Assembly (NCBI RefSeq): GCF_001262635.1
Contig: NZ_JXYH01000005.1
Coordinates: 62,070 to 126,069 of the forward strand
Source of the DNA: Aestuariivita boseongensis
GTDB lineage: Bacteria; Pseudomonadota; Alphaproteobacteria; Rhodobacterales; Rhodobacteraceae
Direction: 5' to 3'
Length of the DNA: 64,000 bases
Position 1 is the first letter of the stretch. Each line of letters opens with the position of its first letter. A program made the translations under genes and the position numbers. The notes below the pieces were generated by a model. That model saw only the letters and a program-made list of their open reading frames with translations. It ran no database searches and was not told the origin of the DNA. This document shows positions 42,624 through 47,940 of this stretch, piece by piece.

Positions 42624-43253
42624 GTTGCGCAACTGCGCAATTTTGTTGCGCGCACACCACAGGCGCTTCCGCCACGTAAATCTTTTTGTTGAGCGAAGCC
42701 GCCGCCGCGCCGTATTCCAGCCCTCCCAATTGGAGGCGATCTTCAAGGTTCAGGGTCCAAACCTGACCGGTGCGGCTGGCGCTGCCTGACCGTATGCCGA
42801 TCGCAGACAAACGGGGGCCGATTCCAAAACTCGGATAGAGCGTGGGCCTCTTCAAAGCCCTGCCGTGAGGCACCTTTTCGGACATTGCCACGTCCGAACA
42901 CCATCCATTCGGTGTTCCTTTCATCGGATCGCCGGGCCCGCGCAGCGTGCGGCCCGGACCGCAACCGGCTTTGCCATTTGCGGGACAAACCAACCGCTGC
43001 TCTGGCCTTGTGCCAGGGACGTGGATGACGGATCCGCCGCCCTTTGGCCCGCCGCTGGCGCGCCTCTGGGTCGCGCCCCTCTCGCCCACGATCCCTCGTC
43101 CGGGGGCATGGCAAAAGGTTCGGCGATCCACCCCGCCCCCCGGCTCAGGGGCATCACACCTGCGGTCCATGACGGGCCCAACCCACCCAACCAGAAAAGG
43201 AGTTCGCGTTTTGCGACGACGATGACACCCGCAGCTAACAAAGGAGATATGTG

Positions 43254-44387
43254 ATGCGGTTTTTTGATTTTTTGACCCCGAAACGACGGGTCGTGGTGGC
43301 CGCCGATGAACGCGCGGTGATCACACGAGACGGCACAGTGGTCGATGTGCTTGGGCCTGGCACCCATTCCATCGTTCACACAGACACCGCCACACGGGTC
43401 CGCCTTGAGGATCCCATAGTTCCTTTGGTTGAAGCGCGGAGGCTTTTCGTCACAAATCCGGACTTGGCGAAGCGCCATTTCCAGTTGGTTGAGATGGGGC
43501 CGCATGAGATCGCGGTTGCCAATCGGCACCAGGCGTTCTCCCACGTGCTTTTGCCGCGTGAGCAAGTGGTGTTCTTGGCGGATGCGCTCGATTTGACGAT
43601 CGACCGGATCGACATCACGGCGTCCCGCATGTTGCCGACGGATGTCCGCGACCGGTTCTTGCAGGGGGCTACCCCGCATGAATTCAGGCGCATCGATGTG
43701 CCTGCCGGTCATGTTGCGGTGGTCTTTGACGGGGATGCCCCGCCGATGGTGATGCAGCCCGGGACGGAGTTCTTCGTCAGAACCGGTGCGATCTTCCACA
43801 TGCGCACCATGACCATGCGCCAGCAGGCGATGGAGGTCACCGGTCAGGAGATCTTGACCCGCGACCGTGTCTCTGTCCGCGTGAACGTCACGGTGGCCTT
43901 CGTGGTCGAAGACCCTGTGCGGGTTGTCACCACGACCGAGGGGGTCAACGAGGTCTTGCGCACCGCCGTGCAATTGGCCGCGCGGGAAACCTTGGGGGCC
44001 GTCACGCTTGACGGGCTTTTGGAAGACAAGGTGGCGATCAACCGCGAGGCCGCCGACAGGGTCCGCGCCGAGATGGCAGAGTTCGGGATCAAGGTCACGA
44101 CTCTTGCCCTCAAGGACGTGATCTTGCCCGGGGAGATGCGGGAGATCCTTACCTCTGTCGTCGCCGCGCAGAAAGAGGCCGAGGCGAACGTCATCCGCCG
44201 GCGCGAGGAAACGAACGCCACGCGGTCCTTGCTTAACACGGCAAAGGTGATGGCGGACAACCCGGTGCTTCTCAGGCTCAAGGAGCTTGAGGCGCTTCAG
44301 GCGATCGCCGACCGGGTCGATACGATCACGGTGCATAACGGGACCGAAGGGTTGATGACCGATTTGGTCCGGTTGCGCGACCGGTAA
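43254..44387 (+). CDS. SPFH/band-7 (stomatin/HflK-C-like) domain protein
   Basis: AAGGAG RBS 7 nt upstream. SPFH core (IFHMRTMTMRQQAMEVTGQEILTRDRVSVRVNVTVAF) and coiled C-terminus (AAQKEAEANVIRRREETNA). Confidence 0.8.
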   Translation: MRFFDFLTPKRRVVVAADERAVITRDGTVVDVLGPGTHSIVHTDTATRVRLEDPIVPLVEARRLFVTNPDLAKRHFQLVEMGPHEIAVANRHQAFSHVLLPREQVVFLADALDLTIDRIDITASRMLPTDVRDRFLQGATPHEFRRIDVPAGHVAVVFDGDAPPMVMQPGTEFFVRTGAIFHMRTMTMRQQAMEVTGQEILTRDRVSVRVNVTVAFVVEDPVRVVTTTEGVNEVLRTAVQLAARETLGAVTLDGLLEDKVAINREAADRVRAEMAEFGIKVTTLALKDVILPGEMREILTSVVAAQKEAEANVIRRREETNATRSLLNTAKVMADNPVLLRLKELEALQAIADRVDTITVHNGTEGLMTDLVRLRDR

Positions 44388-44409
44388 AACACAGCTTGGG
44401 GCGGTCGGG

Positions 44410-44952
44410 TCAGACCCGGTCGCCCCTTGCGTTTTCCACCACAGAAACAGCAGGCGCACGGGCCGTGTCGTCCAGCCCGTCCAACAGATCCTCGATAAAA
44501 TGGCTCAGCAGTTGGGGCCGGCCCGAAACCCCGGCCTTGCGATAGATGGCGGCGGTCTGCGCCTTGACCGTTCCTTCCGAGGTCGAGCGCAGCTGAGCGA
44601 TCTCCTGCGTGGTCAGCCCCTTGATGGCAAACAGCGCCACGTCGCGTTCTGCCGGGGTCAGGCCCCATTCGGTGAAAGACTCCTCCAGCAGGTCCATGAA
44701 CGCGCCCGAGGCGATGCGAAGCTGCGATTTCATCCGCGCTGCGTCGCGCAGGGATCGGCGCAGAACCAGCGCACCGAAACCGACACCGCAGACCAGCCCG
44801 ATGGCCGCGCCTACCTGCATCAATTCGTAAAGCTGCCAGTTGATCGGCGCGACGGGCAGGGCCAGCAATGTGACCAGGATATCGAAGGTGAAGAAGCCTG
44901 CGCAAAGAACCTGAATGATCAGCAACAGCGCAATGGCCCAGCGACGTGTCAT
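44410..44952 (-). CDS. Membrane-anchored LuxR/GerE-family transcriptional regulator
   Basis: Two N-terminal TM helices. C-terminal LuxR HTH (LTPAERDVALFAIKGLTTQEIAQLRSTSEGTVKAQTAAIYRK). Confidence 0.75.
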   Translation of the reverse strand: MTRRWAIALLLIIQVLCAGFFTFDILVTLLALPVAPINWQLYELMQVGAAIGLVCGVGFGALVLRRSLRDAARMKSQLRIASGAFMDLLEESFTEWGLTPAERDVALFAIKGLTTQEIAQLRSTSEGTVKAQTAAIYRKAGVSGRPQLLSHFIEDLLDGLDDTARAPAVSVVENARGDRV

Positions 44953-44961
44953 GCGTCGTCG

Positions 44962-45453
44962 TCAGTCATCGCCGCCTCCGTCGCCGCCATCTCCGTCGCC
45001 GCCATCTCCGCCGTCGCCATCGCCGTCGCCGTCACCGTCACCGCTGCCGGGACCACTGCTGTCGCTGTCGCTGTCGCTGTCACTATCGCCGTCGTCGCCG
45101 CCATAGCCGTCATCCCCGCCATAGCCATCGTCGCCATCATCATCGCCGCCATGGCTTTGATCGCCACCGCCGCGTCCGGGAGAGGCCGCGCCGGGGTCGA
45201 TCAGTTGGATGCGTTCCCGCTGGCGGGCGAAGTCGCGCAGGATGACGCCTGTGACGGGGTTGAAGATGATTTCGCGGTTCAGGCTGTCGTTCTGCGCGGT
45301 GATCCGACCACGGCCCAGAAAGGTGCGGCTGACCTCGATATTCGAATATCCCTGCGCGCGCAGTTGGGACACGATGCTGCGTTCAAACGAGTTTGCGCTG
45401 GCCACGGCGGGTGTCAGCACCAGGGCAAAGATCAGAAGCAGTCTGCGTAGCAT
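44962..45453 (-). CDS. Secreted PepSY-like domain protein with a ~75-aa poly-acidic Asp/Gly/Ser tail
   Basis: Signal peptide MLRRLLLIFALVLTPAVASA. PepSY-like fold segment (LRAQGYSNIEVSRTFLGRGRITAQNDSLNREIIFNPVTGVIL). Tail made of DGDGDG / DSDSDS / GGDD repeats. Confidence 0.65.
   Translation of the reverse strand: MLRRLLLIFALVLTPAVASANSFERSIVSQLRAQGYSNIEVSRTFLGRGRITAQNDSLNREIIFNPVTGVILRDFARQRERIQLIDPGAASPGRGGGDQSHGGDDDGDDGYGGDDGYGGDDGDSDSDSDSDSSGPGSGDGDGDGDGDGGDGGDGDGGDGGGDD
44965..45165. repeat. Tandem hexa/trinucleotide repeats (GTCGCC / GCTGTC units) encoding the acidic tail
   Basis: Runs such as gccgtcgccatcgccgtcgccgtcaccgtcaccg and gctgtcgctgtcgctgtc were read directly. Confidence 0.7.
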
Positions 45454-45537
45454 CGCGTTTTCCCACAAAGAGCCCCCGCGCGGATTGCGCGAGGGCCTGC
45501 TTGTCACACCAACAATAGGGCGTGTTGGTGCCGAGGA

Positions 45538-46176
45538 TCAATCATCGCCGCCGTCACCGTCACCGTCACCATCGCCGCCATCCCCGTCTCCGCCGTCGCC
45601 GTCTCCACCATCGCCGTCACCGTCGCCGCCGTGGCCGCCGTCATCTCCTCCGTGGCCACTGTCATCGCCACCACGACCGCTATTGTCGCTATCGCTATCG
45701 CTATCGCTGTCGCTGTCGCTGTCATCACCGCCACGGCCACTGTCGTCACCGTCGCTGTCGTCACCGCCACCACGGCCATGGTCATCACCGCTGTCGTCGC
45801 CGTCGTCGTCGCCACCGTTGTCGTCATCACCATCGTCGTCGCTGTCATCATAGCCATCATCATCGCTGTCGTCGGGGCTGTTGTCGTCATCGCTGTCGTC
45901 ATCATCCGAGCTGTCATCGTCGTCGGAATCATCATCCGAGCTGTCATCGGATGAGCTGCTGCTGACGCGCCCGTCGCTGTCGTCATCGCCATATGTTTCG
46001 TTGAAATCGTCAATGCCGCGGACCCGTATGACAAGACCGGGAAGATCGCCTGTATCGGGGGCCGAGATAACGGCCAGCGGACCCAGCATATCAGGCTGGC
46101 GCGCAATCCCGACCGAGGCCTGGGCGGTACCGCCCAGCAGGATGGCAAGAGTGGAAAAGGTGATCACGGGTTTCAT
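45538..46176 (-). CDS. Secreted protein with a short N-terminal domain and a ~150-aa poly-acidic (Asp/Ser/Gly) low-complexity tail
   Basis: Signal peptide MKPVITFSTLAILLGGTAQA. ~45 ordered residues, then an uninterrupted D/S/G-rich sequence ending GGDD, like its neighbour. Confidence 0.6.
   Translation of the reverse strand: MKPVITFSTLAILLGGTAQASVGIARQPDMLGPLAVISAPDTGDLPGLVIRVRGIDDFNETYGDDDSDGRVSSSSSDDSSDDDSDDDDSSDDDDSDDDNSPDDSDDDGYDDSDDDGDDDNGGDDDGDDSGDDHGRGGGDDSDGDDSGRGGDDSDSDSDSDSDSDNSGRGGDDSGHGGDDGGHGGDGDGDGGDGDGGDGDGGDGDGDGDGGDD
45541..45960. repeat. Extended tandem hexanucleotide/trinucleotide repeats (GCTATC/GCTGTC/GTCGCC/GTCATC units) encoding the second acidic tail
   Basis: Example: gctatcgctatcgctatcgctgtcgctgtcgctgtc. 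Many GTCGTC/ATCATC runs. Confidence 0.7.
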
Positions 46177-46376
46177 GCTGCGTTCCTTTCGCGTGTGGGG
46201 GACCGGCTTGGGGGGCAGATCCGATGCGAAGTAACAGAGCAGCCAGGCGCCAGCCCCTCCATTGGACTGAGGCTTAGGGGCGCGAATTCTACCTTTGGTT
46301 TATGATTGCCCTGTTCCGGCGGCGCGCGGCGGGGGCAAAACAAACCAAAGTTTATGCGACATGCGCGCGCTGGTGC

Positions 46377-46751
46377 TCAGTGGGCCAGTGCGTGGGCCTT
46401 CAGAACATCCAGCGGAACGATCTCCAGCGCGCGTTGATGGGTGGCGGTCAGCTTCACGCGGGGGGCGCAGCCTTCATCGGCGGCCTGCAGAAAGCGGCTG
46501 GCACACAGGCACCACTGATCTCCCGGCTTGAGGCCGGCAAAACCGAATTCGGGCCGGGGCGTTGACAGGTCGTTGCCCACATATTTCGAAAAGGCCAGGA
46601 ATTCGGCTGTCATCACCGCACAGACGGTGTGGCTGCCGTGATCGGCCGCGCAGGTGTTGCAATGCCCGTCGCGGAAAAAGCCCGTCTTGGGATCGTTCGA
46701 GCACAGCTCAAGCGCCTCACCCAGAACGTTGATGCTGTCTTCCGGTTCCAT
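46377..46751 (-). CDS. DUF2237-family protein
   Basis: MEPEDSINVLGE.LE.CS.DP.TGFFRDG.C.T...D.GSHTVCA.MT.EFL.FS...GNDLSTP pattern characteristic of this conserved family. Confidence 0.7.
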   Translation of the reverse strand: MEPEDSINVLGEALELCSNDPKTGFFRDGHCNTCAADHGSHTVCAVMTAEFLAFSKYVGNDLSTPRPEFGFAGLKPGDQWCLCASRFLQAADEGCAPRVKLTATHQRALEIVPLDVLKAHALAH

Positions 46752-46764
46752 CGGTCGGTGTCCT

Positions 46765-47940
46765 TCAGTTTTGCGCCAGATCGGCGATCTTGCGCATCAT
46801 CTCAACATTCGCAAGGTTCACGCCGGGCTCGCGGAATTGGCGGTCGGCGGCGGTGGTGACGATCACCAAATCGCGCTCCTGATCAATATAGATATATTGC
46901 CCGTAAATTCCGCGCCCCAGGAATTCTTTTTCGCGCGGCTCCACCGGCACCCACCATTGATAGCCATAGCCGATCTGACCCGGCGCAGTGGGCGCACTGG
47001 CTTTCGTGCTTTCGGCGATCCAGTCGGCGGGGACGATCTGCTGGCCGTTCCATTTCCCGTCCTGTTCGATCATCTGGCCAAAGCGCGCGTAATCGCGGGT
47101 GGTCATCAGGATGCCGCCCAGCACGATCGCAACACCGGCCCCGTCGCTGATGAACCGCGGCGCGCCTTCCAGACCCAGCGGCGCGATGATCTTTTCGCTC
47201 ATCAGTTCGGAGACCGGGCGGCCCGTCGCGCCCCGGATCACCATGCCCAGCACATGCGTGTCGAGAGAGACATATTGCCAACGCTCCCCCCGCGTGCCGT
47301 CGGTTTCGGAAAAGCTGGCGGTGAAATCATCCATCAGCCCCCCCAGCGCCAGCACCCGGCCCATGCGCTGAATGTCGGACCGCTGGTCAAGGTAATCCTC
47401 GTCAAAGACCACGGTGCTGGTCATCTGCAATACGTTCCGGATCGTGGCGCCATCATAGGCGGTGCCCGCCAGTTGGGGCACATATTGCGTGACCGGATCG
47501 TCGATGGAGCCAATGGCCCCTTCCTCGAGCAGGATGCCGAAAAGCGAAGACATGAAGCTTTTGGCCAGCGACCACGAGATCCGGTGATCATCGGCTTCGG
47601 TGCCCAGGTAATAGCCTTCATGCACGATCTCGCCCCGGTGCAGCACCAGAAGGGATGTCAGGTCGGCCTCTGCCACCCAGGCGGTCATCTCGGGGGTCGG
47701 CGTCAGGGGGGCGCCTGCGGGCAGGGGTGTGACCGGGCCATCGCCGCGCGGGACGGGCACGGTCAGGAAGGCTTTGTCCATGTTCGAGAAATTCTCGACA
47801 ATCCGGCCTTCGTTGAACAGCGTCACCACGAAATGCAGTCGCTTGATCTGTTCCCACTTCCAGACGCCGACAACCGTTGCGGCCAGAACCAGCATCAGCA
47901 AGATGCGGCCCAGCCATTTCCCGAATGTGCGCATGATCAT
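46765..47940 (-). CDS. Serine hydrolase of the beta-lactamase/transpeptidase family (esterase or class-C-like)
   Basis: SxxK active-site motif (SLAK). YGYQWW-type C-terminal region. N-terminal signal-like segment. Start ambiguous among three closely spaced Met. Confidence 0.75.
   Translation of the reverse strand: MIMRTFGKWLGRILLMLVLAATVVGVWKWEQIKRLHFVVTLFNEGRIVENFSNMDKAFLTVPVPRGDGPVTPLPAGAPLTPTPEMTAWVAEADLTSLLVLHRGEIVHEGYYLGTEADDHRISWSLAKSFMSSLFGILLEEGAIGSIDDPVTQYVPQLAGTAYDGATIRNVLQMTSTVVFDEDYLDQRSDIQRMGRVLALGGLMDDFTASFSETDGTRGERWQYVSLDTHVLGMVIRGATGRPVSELMSEKIIAPLGLEGAPRFISDGAGVAIVLGGILMTTRDYARFGQMIEQDGKWNGQQIVPADWIAESTKASAPTAPGQIGYGYQWWVPVEPREKEFLGRGIYGQYIYIDQERDLVIVTTAADRQFREPGVNLANVEMMRKIADLAQN

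What the first reader, a model, noticed from the sequence alone, without database searches (positions are those of the whole stretch)
44410..46176. Candidate novel module: two secreted proteins with extreme poly-Asp/Gly/Ser tails plus a membrane-bound LuxR regulator
Three co-oriented minus-strand genes are separated by only 9-84 bp. The first is a secreted protein whose mature part is about 75% acidic low-complexity sequence (DSDSDS, DGDGDG, SDDDSDDDD runs, ~150 residues). The second is a secreted PepSY-like domain protein ending in a similar ~75-residue acidic tail. Both terminate in GGDD. They are followed by a LuxR-HTH regulator anchored in the membrane by two N-terminal helices. Highly acidic disordered periplasmic or extracellular tails of this kind resemble calsequestrin-like high-capacity cation-binding or mineral-interacting proteins. 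Pairing with a PepSY domain and a membrane-embedded one-component regulator suggests a cation-sequestration, envelope or matrix system under local control. I do not recognise this as a described system.
Basis: partly seen in the sequence, partly recalled or inferred. Interest (0 to 1): 0.78.

Follow-up and report, generated by a model that had tools for sequence, protein, structure and literature searches.

The report
Acidic-tailed PepSY proteins with membrane regulator
This is a real three-gene operon, conserved across the Rhodobacterales, in which two secreted proteins with long, extremely acidic disordered tails sit next to a membrane-embedded LuxR-type gene regulator; it is probably an uncharacterised envelope or cation-sensing switch related to the recently described PepSY-protein/sensor modules.

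Summary
Three co-oriented minus-strand genes lie at 44410-46176 in Aestuariivita boseongensis.

- **P1:** secreted, with a 150-residue tail of 47% Asp, 27% Gly and 17% Ser.
- **P2:** secreted, with a small alpha/beta domain and a 75-residue Gly/Asp tail.
- **Regulator:** two transmembrane helices followed by a GerE helix-turn-helix.

The cassette is not an artefact. Of 80 related Rhodobacterales loci, 77 have a P2-type gene directly upstream of the regulator, and 73 of those carry an acidic tail. Of the 70 loci with enough upstream sequence, 58 have a second acidic-tail gene.

An 18-bp palindrome, CATAAACC-NN-GGTTTATG, occurs only upstream of the first gene. The window has one copy at 46339-46356.

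P2's family and most P1-slot proteins are PepSY_2-like. In two genomes the P1 slot holds an EF-hand protein instead. Plasmid paralogues of the regulator also pair with PepSY genes, some beside VIT or Czc metal exporters.

My best reading is an autoregulated transmembrane one-component regulator that uses a periplasmic PepSY partner, with the polyanionic tails binding cations. Cation binding, partner contact and operator binding are inferred, not shown.

It is a new variant of the PepSY-plus-sensor theme (DbfQ-DbfRS), not a categorically new system. Interest is moderate to high.

The parts
46339..46356 (-). Operator-like 18-bp palindrome. It reads CATAAACTTTGGTTTGTT on the minus strand, 3 mismatches from the family consensus CATAAACC-NN-GGTTTATG, and lies about 170 bp upstream of the P1 start.
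   Evidence: - It is the only spacer-2 match in the 64-kb window.
- In 84 related loci (570 kb), all 38 matches with <=2 mismatches lie upstream of the first module gene and none lie elsewhere.
- The block is identical in L001/L002 while the neighbouring spacer diverges.
- Of 18 high-GC metagenome contigs carrying the exact palindrome, 15 carry the module downstream in the right orientation.
46286..46304 (-). Second conserved block, CATAAACCAAAGGTAGAAT. It consists of one operator half-site followed by a possible -10 element (TAGAAT, 46286-46291).
   Evidence: - It is conserved against L001/L002 (CATAAACCAAAGATAGAGT) within an otherwise diverged intergenic region.
- The promoter reading comes from inspecting the sequence. 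The consensus sigma-70 scan found no promoter.
45538..46176 (-). P1, a secreted protein of 212 aa.
- Signal peptide: residues 1-21.
- Short N-terminal region ending in PGLVIRVRGIDDF.
- Polyanionic disordered tail: residues 63-212 (45541-45990), ending GGDD.
   Evidence: - ORF and sequence. Composition.
- Orthologues lie at the same position in L001/L002, where tail length differs by in-frame indels.
- P1 shares only the PG-V-x-V-R...DF linker motif with the PepSY-type proteins that fill this slot in most genomes.
- No Pfam or NCBIfam hit. No homologue of the N-terminus was found by the word-indexed search.
44962..45453 (-). P2, a secreted protein of 163 aa.
- Signal peptide: residues 1-20.
- PepSY_2-like domain: residues 21-78 (45220-45393).
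- Gly/Asp/Ser tail: residues 89-163 (44965-45189), ending GGDD.
   Evidence: - The AF2 model shows helix 17-33 plus four strands at pLDDT ~90, with the tail at pLDDT 43-58.
- The family profile matches the PepSY-type P1-slot family at 99.2% probability, E 3e-19.
- Pfam PepSY_2 is matched by 14/23 P2-type and 19/22 P1-slot domains.
- The family has 1278 clusters at E<=1e-3 among 1.84 billion representatives.
- It lies directly upstream of the regulator in 77/80 loci.
44410..44952 (-). Transmembrane LuxR/GerE-type one-component regulator, 180 aa.
- TM hairpin: residues 2-64 (44761-44949), with an ~8-residue periplasmic loop.
- Long cytoplasmic helix to residue 96.
- Helix-turn-helix: residues 98-150 (44503-44661).
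- The start codon lies 9 bp after the P2 stop.
   Evidence: - GerE scores 31.3 bits. AF2 mean pLDDT is 85. Hydropathy.
- It is identical to WP_050928222.1 of Aestuariivita boseongensis.
- Residues invariant over 86 sequences in the TM and loop region are Q14, W39, E43, G52 and L53. P36 is found in 85/86, E46 in 80/86 and D24 in 63/86.
- No receiver or autoinducer-binding domain was found.
44398..44426 (.). GC-rich hairpin between the convergent regulator and SPFH genes. It overlaps the regulator's stop codon and is a likely bidirectional terminator marking the end of the operon.
   Evidence: - Terminator-like site with 13 pairs, 10 of them G-C.
- On the minus strand the hairpin is followed by TGTGTTTT.

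Best explanation
The three genes plus the upstream palindrome form one autoregulated envelope-signalling operon that is ancestral to the Rhodobacterales.

**Proposed mechanism**
- The regulator is a transcription factor that stays in the inner membrane. It has no periplasmic domain, only a conserved helical hairpin with polar and acidic residues near the periplasmic face (Q14, D24, P36, W39, E43, E46).
- I propose that it reads the periplasm through P2. P2 is a small secreted PepSY_2-like protein made in fixed proportion to the regulator (9-bp gap). It would dock on the hairpin or loop much as DbfQ docks on the sensor kinase DbfS.
- P2 and P1 both carry long disordered polyanionic tails. These most likely bind di- or multivalent cations: Ca2+/Mg2+ in seawater, or possibly Fe or other hard metal ions. 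Cation loading would change how the PepSY partner engages the regulator.
- The regulator dimer then binds the 8-2-8 palindrome upstream of P1 and controls at least its own operon.

**Shown here**
- Gene structures, domain families and predicted disorder.
- Order-wide synteny.
- Exclusive co-occurrence of the palindrome with the module.
- The PepSY-regulator pairing recurs in paralogues.

**Inferred**
- P2-regulator contact.
- Cation binding by the tails.
- The regulator being the protein that binds the palindrome.
- The physiological signal.
For: **Unit of inheritance**
- 77/80 loci have a P2-type gene ending <200 bp upstream of the regulator. 73 of these have an acidic tail of 15 aa or more.
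- 58/70 loci have a second acidic-tail gene.
- The canonical arrangement trpB> A> B> Reg> <DUF2237 appears in most loci (67 with DUF2237, 60 with trpB). The window cassette, including its operator, is inverted between the same flanks.

**Operator**
- All 38 near-consensus palindromes in 570 kb of loci lie upstream of the first module gene.
- The window copy is at 46339-46356.
- 15 of 18 high-GC metagenome contigs with the exact palindrome carry the module.
- From my own knowledge, an inverted repeat with a 2-bp spacer is the geometry used by NarL/GerE-type dimers.

**PepSY assignment**
- hhalign gives 99.2% between the two families. Pfam PepSY_2 hits appear in 19/22 and 14/23 members. The AF2 fold is helix + 4 strands.

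**The PepSY-regulator pair is the conserved core**
- Plasmid paralogues (31-41% identity, same TM1 motif QxLCAxFFxxD) have a PepSY gene upstream in 5 of the 6 Rhodobacterales plasmid loci inspected (8 records inspected in all).

**Cation link**
- Pfam EF-hands above threshold occupy the P1 slot in L015 and L017.
- Paralogue operons include VIT-family exporters and lie beside a metal-sensing repressor. Another paralogue lies beside a CusA/CzcA pump.
- LanP and UipA are metal-binding PepSY proteins (PMC9988556; PMC12714742 ref. 27; 7atk appears).

**Precedent for the mechanism**
- DbfQ binds the DbfS sensor domain. PepSY + HK/RR neighbourhoods are >60-fold enriched and sometimes have two PepSY genes (PMC12714742).

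**Tails**
- Tails are retained at 50-115 aa across the loci tabulated (47 with a P2-type gene) while their composition drifts among D, E, G, S and N. This argues for selection on a polyanionic disordered character rather than on sequence.
Against: - No experiment or binding prediction was possible. There was no multimer modelling tool, and a mutual-information scan between the regulator hairpin and the P2 domain gave nothing convincing.
- The regulator's periplasmic loop is only ~8 residues, which leaves little surface for a partner.
- Some family members have weakly acidic or G/S-rich tails. Only 86 of 140 diverse representatives are strongly acidic, and L062, L080, L083 and L209 are examples. 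Acidity is therefore not obligatory for the pair to exist.
- Tail acidity tracks habitat salinity. This could reflect general proteome acidity rather than ligand binding.
- The palindrome could be bound by a different regulator.
- No extra regulon targets were found.
Confidence: 0.45

Rival explanations
1. Output model. The tailed proteins are the product rather than the sensor. They would be abundant periplasmic polyanions acting as a cation reservoir or buffer, or as fixed negative charge (Donnan or osmotic role, like anionic periplasmic glucans). The membrane regulator would sense membrane or envelope state through its own hairpin and simply set their level. The PepSY domains would serve only for folding or retention.
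For: - Net charges are extreme: -69 for P1 and -22 for P2.
- Two tailed genes are the only clear targets downstream of the operator.
- Tail acidity rises with habitat salinity: 0.74-0.77 hypersaline, 0.35-0.64 marine, and often <0.35 in freshwater or soil MAGs.
- Variable neighbours include SPFH and MscS membrane-stress genes.
- P1 in the window lineage has lost its PepSY domain but kept the tail.
Against: - The P2-type PepSY domain is far more conserved than the tails, with invariant residues R48, R50, R60, E61, G69, R73 and D74 (alignment A2).
- The PepSY domain stays glued to the regulator even in paralogues that have no acidic tail.
- Tight coupling (9-bp gap) is typical of interacting partners.
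- The DbfQ precedent shows PepSY proteins acting on the sensor itself (PMC12714742).
Confidence: 0.2
2. Envelope-damage sensing without cations. As in DbfQ-DbfRS, the PepSY partner would hold the regulator in one state, and outer-membrane or LPS perturbation would release it. The tails would be entropic spacers or solubility bristles, acidic only because they must avoid sticking to the anionic envelope.
For: - DbfRS responds to LPS defects and membrane-damaging agents, not to a defined ion (PMC12714742).
- Many family members have G/S/A/P-rich, only mildly acidic tails of similar length; the median is 74 aa.
- Tail sequence is not conserved.
Against: - EF-hand substitution in the P1 slot and metal-exporter neighbours of paralogues point to ions.
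- Spacers would not need 35-77% Asp/Glu.
- From my own knowledge, LPS integrity itself depends on divalent cations, so the two readings overlap.
Confidence: 0.2
3. Protease-control model. In line with the original proposal for PepSY domains, P2 (and the PepSY proteins in the P1 slot) would inhibit a periplasmic or membrane protease. That protease would otherwise release or destroy the membrane-tethered regulator (regulated proteolysis).
For: - The Pfam family name and the Yeats et al. 2004 proposal, cited in PMC12714742.
- Membrane-tethered transcription factors are often controlled by proteolysis (from my own knowledge).
Against: - No protease gene is part of the conserved cassette or its flanks.
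- The regulator exposes only ~8 residues to the periplasm, which gives no site-1 substrate.
- The characterised stand-alone PepSY proteins bind sensors or metals, not proteases (PMC12714742, PMC9988556).
Confidence: 0.05
4. Artefact. The acidic tails would be mis-assembled or non-coding GC-rich repeats, and P1 and P2 would not be real genes.
For: - The exact P1 and P2 sequences are absent from the 15-billion-protein collection, although the regulator is present. The source annotation therefore seems to lack them.
- The repeats also generate long spurious ORFs in other frames.
Against: - Signal peptide + domain + tail in one open frame is conserved in dozens of genera from independent assemblies, including complete genomes.
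- Repeat units are imperfect and use mixed codons.
- Length differences between near-identical contigs are in frame.
Confidence: 0.02

Closest known systems
DbfQ-DbfRS of Vibrio cholerae and DbfQRS-like modules (including PA2658/PA2659 with BqsRS in P. aeruginosa) (PMC12714742)
   Same: - A small Sec-secreted single-domain PepSY protein is encoded immediately beside, and co-oriented with, a membrane signal transducer.
- Sometimes two PepSY genes lie in tandem upstream.
- The module is widespread and the operon is presumed to be co-regulated.
   Different: - The transducer here is a single membrane-embedded LuxR/GerE-type transcription factor with no periplasmic sensor domain. There is no histidine kinase or response regulator within at least five genes on either side.
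- The PepSY proteins carry 50-150-residue polyanionic disordered tails, which DbfQ (135 aa) is not described as having.
- The module has a dedicated 18-bp palindrome.
- Direct binding was not tested here.
Transmembrane transcription regulators with periplasmic partner proteins (ToxR-ToxS, TcpP-TcpH, VtrA-VtrC class; survey in PMC10269533)
   Same: - A one-component regulator acts on DNA from the inner membrane.
- A co-transcribed periplasm-facing partner modulates it.
   Different: - Those regulators have an N-terminal OmpR-type winged helix, one TM helix and a periplasmic domain (from my own knowledge).
- This one has an N-terminal two-helix hairpin, a C-terminal GerE helix-turn-helix and no periplasmic domain.
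- The partners in those systems are not PepSY proteins.
Metal-binding PepSY proteins: lanpepsy LanP (PMC9988556) and UipA (PDB 7atk; cited in PMC12714742)
   Same: - They are periplasmic or extracytoplasmic PepSY-domain proteins.
- Their known biochemical activity is binding hard metal cations.
   Different: - In those proteins the metal sites lie on the PepSY domains themselves. Here the candidate binding element is a disordered poly-Asp/Gly tail.
PhoQ acidic-patch sensing of Mg2+/Ca2+ (from my own knowledge)
   Same: A cluster of periplasmic acidic residues close to the membrane reports divalent-cation availability to a transcriptional output.
   Different: - PhoQ is a histidine kinase with a folded PAS-like sensor domain and a short acidic patch.
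- Here the acidic elements are long disordered tails on separate proteins, plus D24, E43 and E46 in the regulator hairpin.
Calsequestrin and RTX Gly/Asp repeats (high-capacity or repeat-based Ca2+ binders)
   Same: - The sequence is very Asp-rich and low in complexity.
- It is plausibly disordered until loaded with cations.
   Different: - There is no thioredoxin-like calsequestrin domain and no GGxGxDxUx nonapeptide (0 matches).
- There is no Pfam hit.
- The proteins have an N-terminal Sec signal rather than a C-terminal type I secretion signal.

Membership tests
PepSY_2 (Pfam PF13670), for P2 | Match to the Pfam model at or above the gathering score (24.3 bits) | tested here: not met
   - The window P2 gives no Pfam hit at E<=1.
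- Its domain-only sequence also gives none (member 1).
- Orthologues reach E 2e-3 at best (14/23 hit at E<=1).
PepSY_2 (Pfam PF13670), for P2 | Homology to bona fide PepSY_2 domains by profile comparison | tested here: met
   - The P2-type profile (A4) matches the P1-slot profile (A3) at 99.2% probability, E 3e-19, over 70 columns.
- 19/22 A3 members hit PepSY_2, with a best E-value of 2.3e-8.
PepSY_2 (Pfam PF13670), for P2 | Small alpha/beta fold (one helix packed on a four-stranded sheet) in a secreted protein | tested here: inconclusive
   - The AF2 model has helix 17-33 plus strands 37-43, 49-54, 58-64 and 71-78 at pLDDT ~90.
LuxR/GerE C-terminal HTH (Pfam PF00196), for the regulator | Match above the gathering score | tested here: met
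   31.3 bits against a 23.5-bit cutoff, residues 98-150. The model shows four helices at 100-165.
Quorum-sensing LuxR proteins | N-terminal autoinducer-binding domain | tested here: not met
   No such domain is seen in Pfam or NCBIfam. The N-terminus is a two-helix membrane hairpin.
NarL/FixJ response regulators | N-terminal receiver domain and a cognate histidine kinase | tested here: not met
   - No receiver domain was found.
- No kinase or receiver gene lies among the neighbours: S1, PRAI, trpB, SPFH | DUF2237, beta-lactamase-like, Pth, ABM, acyl-CoA DH, L25, MFS.
Transmembrane transcription regulators (TTR, PMC10269533) | DNA-binding domain and transmembrane segment(s) in one polypeptide | tested here: met
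   Hydropathy windows >1.6 start at residues 3-20 and 44-47. The AF2 model shows helices 2-30 and 39-96 followed by the HTH.
DbfQRS-like PepSY/two-component modules (PMC12714742) | Small secreted PepSY-only protein within four genes of the transducer | tested here: met
   P2 ends 9 bp before the regulator's start codon. The same adjacency is found in 77/80 loci.
DbfQRS-like PepSY/two-component modules (PMC12714742) | The transducer is a histidine kinase with a response regulator | tested here: not met
   The transducer is a one-component membrane LuxR-type protein, and no HK or RR lies nearby.
DbfQRS-like PepSY/two-component modules (PMC12714742) | Direct binding of the PepSY protein to the transducer | not testable with these tools
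   No complex prediction or experiment was available. The covariation scan was uninformative.
RTX / beta-roll Ca2+-binding repeats | Tandem GGxGxDxUx nonapeptides, with a HemolysinCabind Pfam match | tested here: not met
   There are 0 regex matches in P1 or P2 and no Pfam hit. The proteins have N-terminal Sec signals.
EF-hand Ca2+-binding proteins, for P1 | Canonical 12-residue loop with an acidic residue at position 12; Pfam EF-hand match | tested here: not met
   - P1 has no Pfam EF-hand hit (protein 6) and no regex match.
- The stretch DDDSDGRVSSSS resembles a loop but lacks the position-12 acid.
- Proteins in the same slot in L015 and L017 do pass (27.7 and 25.4 bits against a 25.4-bit cutoff).

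The most novel reading that the evidence does not exclude
The poly-Asp/Gly tails would be the ligand-binding antennae of a new type of periplasmic divalent-cation sensor. In this reading, intrinsically disordered polyanions on PepSY adaptor proteins load with Ca2+/Mg2+ and, through the adaptor, switch a domain-less transmembrane LuxR-type regulator. Tail charge density would be tuned by evolution to the cation level of the habitat (hypersaline > marine > freshwater). This would be an order-wide Ca2+/Mg2+ homeostasis or envelope-charge regulator of the Rhodobacterales, and the first sensor whose recognition element is a disordered periplasmic tail.
Probability: 0.25. Interest if true: 0.8.

Novelty: new variant of a known kind. 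Interest (0 to 1): 0.6.

Why it matters
- **An unstudied signalling module in abundant bacteria.** Rhodobacterales are among the most abundant marine heterotrophs. This cassette sits in their core genome, between trpB and DUF2237 in most genera examined, yet it has no name, no Pfam or NCBIfam assignment for its two secreted proteins, and apparently no gene calls for them in the source genome. If the model is right, it extends the newly recognised PepSY-adaptor principle (DbfQ) from two-component systems to membrane-tethered one-component regulators.
- **A simple model for two open questions.** It offers a genetically simple system (three genes, one operator) for asking how a transcription factor without a periplasmic domain senses the periplasm. 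It also allows a test of what extreme polyanionic disordered tails do in the bacterial envelope. Bacterial Ca2+/Mg2+ sensing outside PhoQ-type kinases is poorly understood.
- **An annotation blind spot.** The finding shows that low-complexity secreted proteins can be dropped from annotation or called in the wrong frame.

Tried and rejected
- **Direct family searches for P1 and P2.** Pfam and NCBIfam gave nothing.
- **PDB sequence-profile search with the P2 family.** It returned only low-complexity noise, E >= 0.26.
- **Homologue search with the P1 N-terminus.** No hit.
- **Exact-protein look-ups.** The regulator and P0047 had no gene on record.
- **Megablast of the cassette against plasmids.** No match.
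- **Rfam scan of 43000-47500.** One sub-threshold chance hit.
- **RNA hairpin reading of the two conserved upstream blocks (CUUUGGUUU / AAACCAAAG).** The z-score is -2.7 in the window but +0.24 in L002. More distant genomes show a palindrome plus a half-site instead. I therefore prefer a DNA operator, though the hairpin is not excluded for this lineage.
- **Metagenome scan for the exact palindrome, looking for other regulon members.** Most of the 120 hits are AT-rich chance matches. The three high-GC contigs without the module are short or unrelated.
- **Mutual information between regulator hairpin positions and P2 domain positions.** Only weak signals confounded by phylogeny. The D24 x R43 table is uninformative.
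- **Literature searches.** Combining PepSY with LuxR, Rhodobacter or roseobacter genera, and searching for periplasmic aspartate-rich disordered proteins, found no description of this module.
- **Families considered and rejected.** RTX, calsequestrin, quorum-sensing LuxR and response-regulator membership (see the membership tests).


Full report
**What is in the window**

The window comes from Aestuariivita boseongensis. The regulator is 100% identical to WP_050928222.1. On the minus strand between 46176 and 44410 lie three ORFs.

P1 (45538-46176, 212 aa) begins with a typical Sec signal, MKPVITFSTLAILLGGTAQA|SV. After about 40 ordinary residues it becomes a 150-residue tail of 47% Asp, 27% Gly and 17% Ser. 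The mature net charge is about -69.

P2 is best started at the ATG at 45453 (163 aa), because all homologues begin there. It has a signal peptide (…PAVASA|NS), a conserved ~58-residue domain and a 75-residue tail of 41% Gly, 35% Asp and 12% Ser. Both proteins end in GGDD.

The regulator (44410-44952, 180 aa) starts 9 bp after the P2 stop. It matches Pfam GerE above threshold (31.3 bits, residues 98-150). Its AF2 model (mean pLDDT 85) shows helix 2-30, an eight-residue loop, one long helix 39-96 and then a four-helix DNA-binding domain. Hydropathy agrees on two membrane helices. There is no receiver or autoinducer-binding domain.

The only terminator-like hairpin lies just after the regulator, shared with the convergent SPFH gene.

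**The tails are not an artefact**

The repeat DNA is imperfect, with 60-77% identity between units, and uses mixed GAC/GAT and GGC/GGT codons. Two near-identical metagenome contigs differ in the P1 orthologue only by in-frame repeat indels (182 vs 192 aa) while their P2 orthologues are identical. Equivalent tails occur in dozens of independently assembled genomes (see the next section).

The exact P1 and P2 sequences are absent from a 15-billion-protein collection that does contain the regulator. A search with the P2 domain returned no 100% hit. The two genes therefore seem to be missing from the public annotation of this genome.

**Comparative genomics**

The regulator belongs to a very well conserved family, with many relatives at 58-79% identity. 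A scan of one genome per species returned at least 580 relatives. The best 80 are all Rhodobacterales.

- Of the 80 loci overall (genome-scan loci plus four fetched earlier) that have enough upstream sequence, 77 have a gene with the P2-type motif (…RTxLGRxRI…REI(I/V)xNPxTGxILRD) ending less than 200 bp upstream of the regulator. In 73 of them it carries an acidic tail of 15 residues or more.
- Of 70 loci with at least 1.6 kb upstream, 58 have a second secreted acidic-tail gene before it.
- The canonical chromosomal arrangement is trpB> A> B> regulator> <DUF2237. DUF2237 is present in 67 of 80 loci and trpB in 60 of 80.
- In the window and its closest relatives the three genes and their upstream region are inverted as a block between the same flanks. 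The window also has an extra SPFH gene.

The cassette therefore behaves as one unit and is ancestral and chromosomal, not mobile.

**What the secreted proteins are**

The window P2 has no Pfam or NCBIfam hit. Its AF2 model has one helix and four strands at pLDDT ~90, followed by a low-confidence tail. Fold searches were inconclusive for such a small domain.

The sequence route worked. In most genomes the upstream ('A') protein has a domain that hits Pfam PepSY_2 in 19 of 22 cases, with a best E-value of 2.3e-8. The P2-type ('B') domains hit PepSY_2 weakly in 14 of 23 cases. The two family profiles match each other at 99.2% probability, E 3e-19.

The B-type family is sizeable. It has 1278 clusters at E<=1e-3 among 1.84 billion representatives. 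Of the 140 best representatives that carry the motif, 86 have a strongly acidic tail. The others have similarly long, G/S-rich tails, which in nearly all of the cases tabulated carry more acidic than basic residues. The median tail length is 74 aa, and the pooled composition is D 25%, G 18%, S 10% and E 7%.

The window's P1 is an unusual occupant of the A slot. It has no PepSY domain and no detectable homologues of its N-terminus. It keeps the short motif that follows the PepSY domain in A-type proteins: PGLVIRVRGIDDF compared with PGVEVRSESRDF, PGVSVRNRNRDF and similar. It looks like an A-type protein that lost its domain and kept the tail.

In two genomes (L015, L017) the A slot holds an EF-hand protein with an acidic tail, with Pfam EF-hand_1 at or above threshold.

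**A dedicated cis element**

K-mer counting in the upstream regions revealed the palindrome CATAAACC-NN-GGTTTATG. Allowing two mismatches, it occurs 38 times in 570 kb of related loci. Every occurrence is upstream of the first module gene, typically 140-160 bp before its start. A further GGTTTAT half-site often lies 21 bp downstream.

The window has one copy (46339-46356, three mismatches), which is the only such match in 64 kb. A second conserved block, CATAAACCAAAGGTAGAAT (46286-46304), may include a -10 element. Both blocks are identical in L001/L002, whereas the spacer between them has diverged.

Among metagenome contigs with the exact palindrome, AT-rich chance hits dominate. Of 18 contigs with GC >= 0.58, however, 15 carry the module downstream in the correct orientation.

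From my own knowledge, an inverted repeat with a 2-bp spacer is the geometry used by NarL/GerE-type dimers. The simplest reading is autoregulation by the module's own regulator. This is an inference. An RNA hairpin formed by the two blocks is possible in the window (z -2.7) but not supported in L002. Rfam finds nothing.

**The regulator's sensing element**

Over 86 sequences the membrane hairpin is unusually conserved for a mere anchor. Q14, W39, E43, G52 and L53 are invariant. P36 is found in 85/86, C17 in 80/86 and E46 in 80/86. D24 is Asp in 63, Glu in 8 and Asn in 7. D24, E43 and E46 lie near the periplasmic ends of the helices.

The B-type PepSY domain has invariant arginines: R43 (mostly), R48, R50, R60 and R73. 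Charge complementarity between the two is an attractive idea, but a covariation scan gave no usable signal.

**Paralogues**

tblastn of the regulator against plasmids found 14 full- or near-full-length paralogues at 31-41% identity.

- In Roseinatronobacter and Thioclava nitratireducens a B-type PepSY gene lies directly upstream. The first has no tail; the second has a G/S tail.
- In Thioclava FTW29, Sulfitobacter and Paracoccus fistulariae the order is PepSY - cytochrome b - regulator paralogue. In the latter two a VIT-family gene follows, and in Sulfitobacter the set lies beside a metal-sensing repressor.
- In Pseudoalteromonas the paralogue is divergent from a CusA/CzcA pump.
- Ensifer and Leisingera copies have no PepSY neighbour.

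The PepSY-regulator pair is therefore the recurring core. The acidic tails are a feature of the chromosomal system, and several paralogues have metal-ion neighbours.

**How it probably works**

The closest characterised system is DbfQ-DbfRS of Vibrio cholerae. DbfQ is a small secreted PepSY protein, encoded beside the sensor, that binds its periplasmic domain and sets its output. Such neighbourhoods are more than 60-fold enriched and sometimes have two PepSY genes, as with PA2658/PA2659 and BqsRS (PMC12714742). Other stand-alone PepSY proteins bind metals (LanP, PMC9988556; UipA). Membrane-resident transcription factors are a recognised class (PMC10269533).

I therefore propose the following model, with confidence ~0.45. 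The regulator is a transmembrane one-component factor. P2 is its periplasmic adaptor. The polyanionic tails of P2 and P1 bind di- or multivalent cations and modulate that contact. The regulator controls the operon through the palindrome.

The rival readings are:

- The tails are the output, a periplasmic polyanion or cation buffer (0.2).
- The module senses envelope damage without ions, and the tails are spacers (0.2).
- The PepSY proteins control a protease (0.05).
- The locus is an artefact (0.02).

**Comparison and novelty**

The module fails the defining feature of DbfQRS-like systems, because no kinase or response regulator lies within at least five genes. It also fails the tests for quorum-sensing LuxR, NarL-type regulators, RTX repeats and EF-hand (for P1). 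It meets the tests for GerE HTH, for a transmembrane transcription regulator and, at family level, for PepSY_2.

I found no description of it in the searchable literature. I rate it a new variant of a known kind. The PepSY-adaptor theme is here joined to a domain-less membrane LuxR-type regulator and decorated with extreme polyanionic tails.

It is of moderate to high interest. It is conserved across an ecologically dominant order, is compact and testable, and touches on how bacteria sense periplasmic cations and what disordered polyanions do in the envelope.

Noticed in passing
L024:2287-2907 (also L015, L016, L019, L064): In five genomes a 206-aa cytoplasmic 2OG-Fe(II) oxygenase gene sits between the two acidic-tail genes, on the same strand. 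It matches Pfam 2OG-FeII_Oxy_5 at E 4.9e-22, and the copies are 68-100% identical to one another. Three of the five genomes are from hypersaline sources. It might modify the tailed proteins (for example Asp/Asn hydroxylation), or it might be unrelated cargo.
   Followed up: partly
L015:1754-2125 and L017:2317-2802: The upstream (P1) slot is occupied by secreted EF-hand proteins with poly-Asp/Glu tails instead of PepSY-type proteins. EF-hand_1 scores 27.7 and 25.4 bits, and L017 has an EF-hand pair.
   Followed up: yes
window 44962-46176: The exact P1 and P2 proteins (three start variants tried) are absent from the 15-billion-protein collection, although the adjacent regulator is present as WP_050928222.1. 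The two low-complexity genes appear to be unannotated in the source genome.
   Followed up: partly
P0048, P0165, P0273 (database proteins): Several public gene calls read the tail-coding repeats in the wrong frame or fuse neighbouring genes. Examples are a regulator with a spurious MMTTTATMMTATMM… N-terminal extension and A+B fusion proteins with Thr/Met- or Arg/Pro-rich linkers. The Thalassococcus sp. S3 P1 orthologue (81 aa) likewise ends in a Thr/Met stretch, which suggests a frameshift in the tail.
   Followed up: partly
L001:3892-4440 vs L002:3862-4440: Two otherwise near-identical contigs differ in the P1 orthologue by in-frame repeat indels (182 vs 192 aa), while P2 and the regulator are identical. 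The tails are length-polymorphic within a population.
   Followed up: partly
L005-L084 (B-type tails): The acidity of the P2-type tail appears to follow habitat. The D+E fraction is 0.74-0.77 in hypersaline taxa, 0.35-0.64 in marine taxa and often 0.07-0.35 in MAGs whose names suggest lakes, streams, dams or soil. Those low-acidity MAGs also often lack the upstream acidic gene. Tail length stays at 50-115 aa throughout. Habitats were inferred from record titles, and general proteome acidity is a confounder.
   Followed up: partly
L210:1622-3682, L211:1631-3750, L208:1546-2977: Plasmid-borne paralogous operons have the order PepSY (83-86 aa) - cytochrome b - 2TM LuxR-type regulator. In L210 and L211 a VIT-family gene follows. 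In Sulfitobacter (L210) the operon lies next to a metal-sensing repressor and an MFS transporter. In Paracoccus fistulariae (L211) it sits on a 7.5-kb mobilizable plasmid. These look like a metal (Fe/Mn?) efflux or redox module under the same kind of regulator.
   Followed up: partly
L010:1980-2717: The upstream protein of this MAG has an ~80-residue perfect (Thr-Gly)n run before its acidic, His-containing tail. This is a different kind of low-complexity insert in the same slot.
   Followed up: no
window 43251-44387 (+); L001/L002:6018-6911: The genes inserted next to the regulator differ between lineages but are both membrane-stress related. The window has an SPFH/Band-7 protein (present in only 3 of 80 loci), and the closest metagenome relatives have an MscS-type mechanosensitive channel.
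   Followed up: no
window 46283-46362 (-): The two conserved upstream blocks can pair (CUUUGGUUU / AAACCAAAG) around a GC-rich inner stem, at -28.6 kcal/mol and z -2.7. In L002 the outer stem is kept but the fold is no better than shuffled sequence. It is unclear whether this hairpin has any role beyond the DNA operator.
   Followed up: partly
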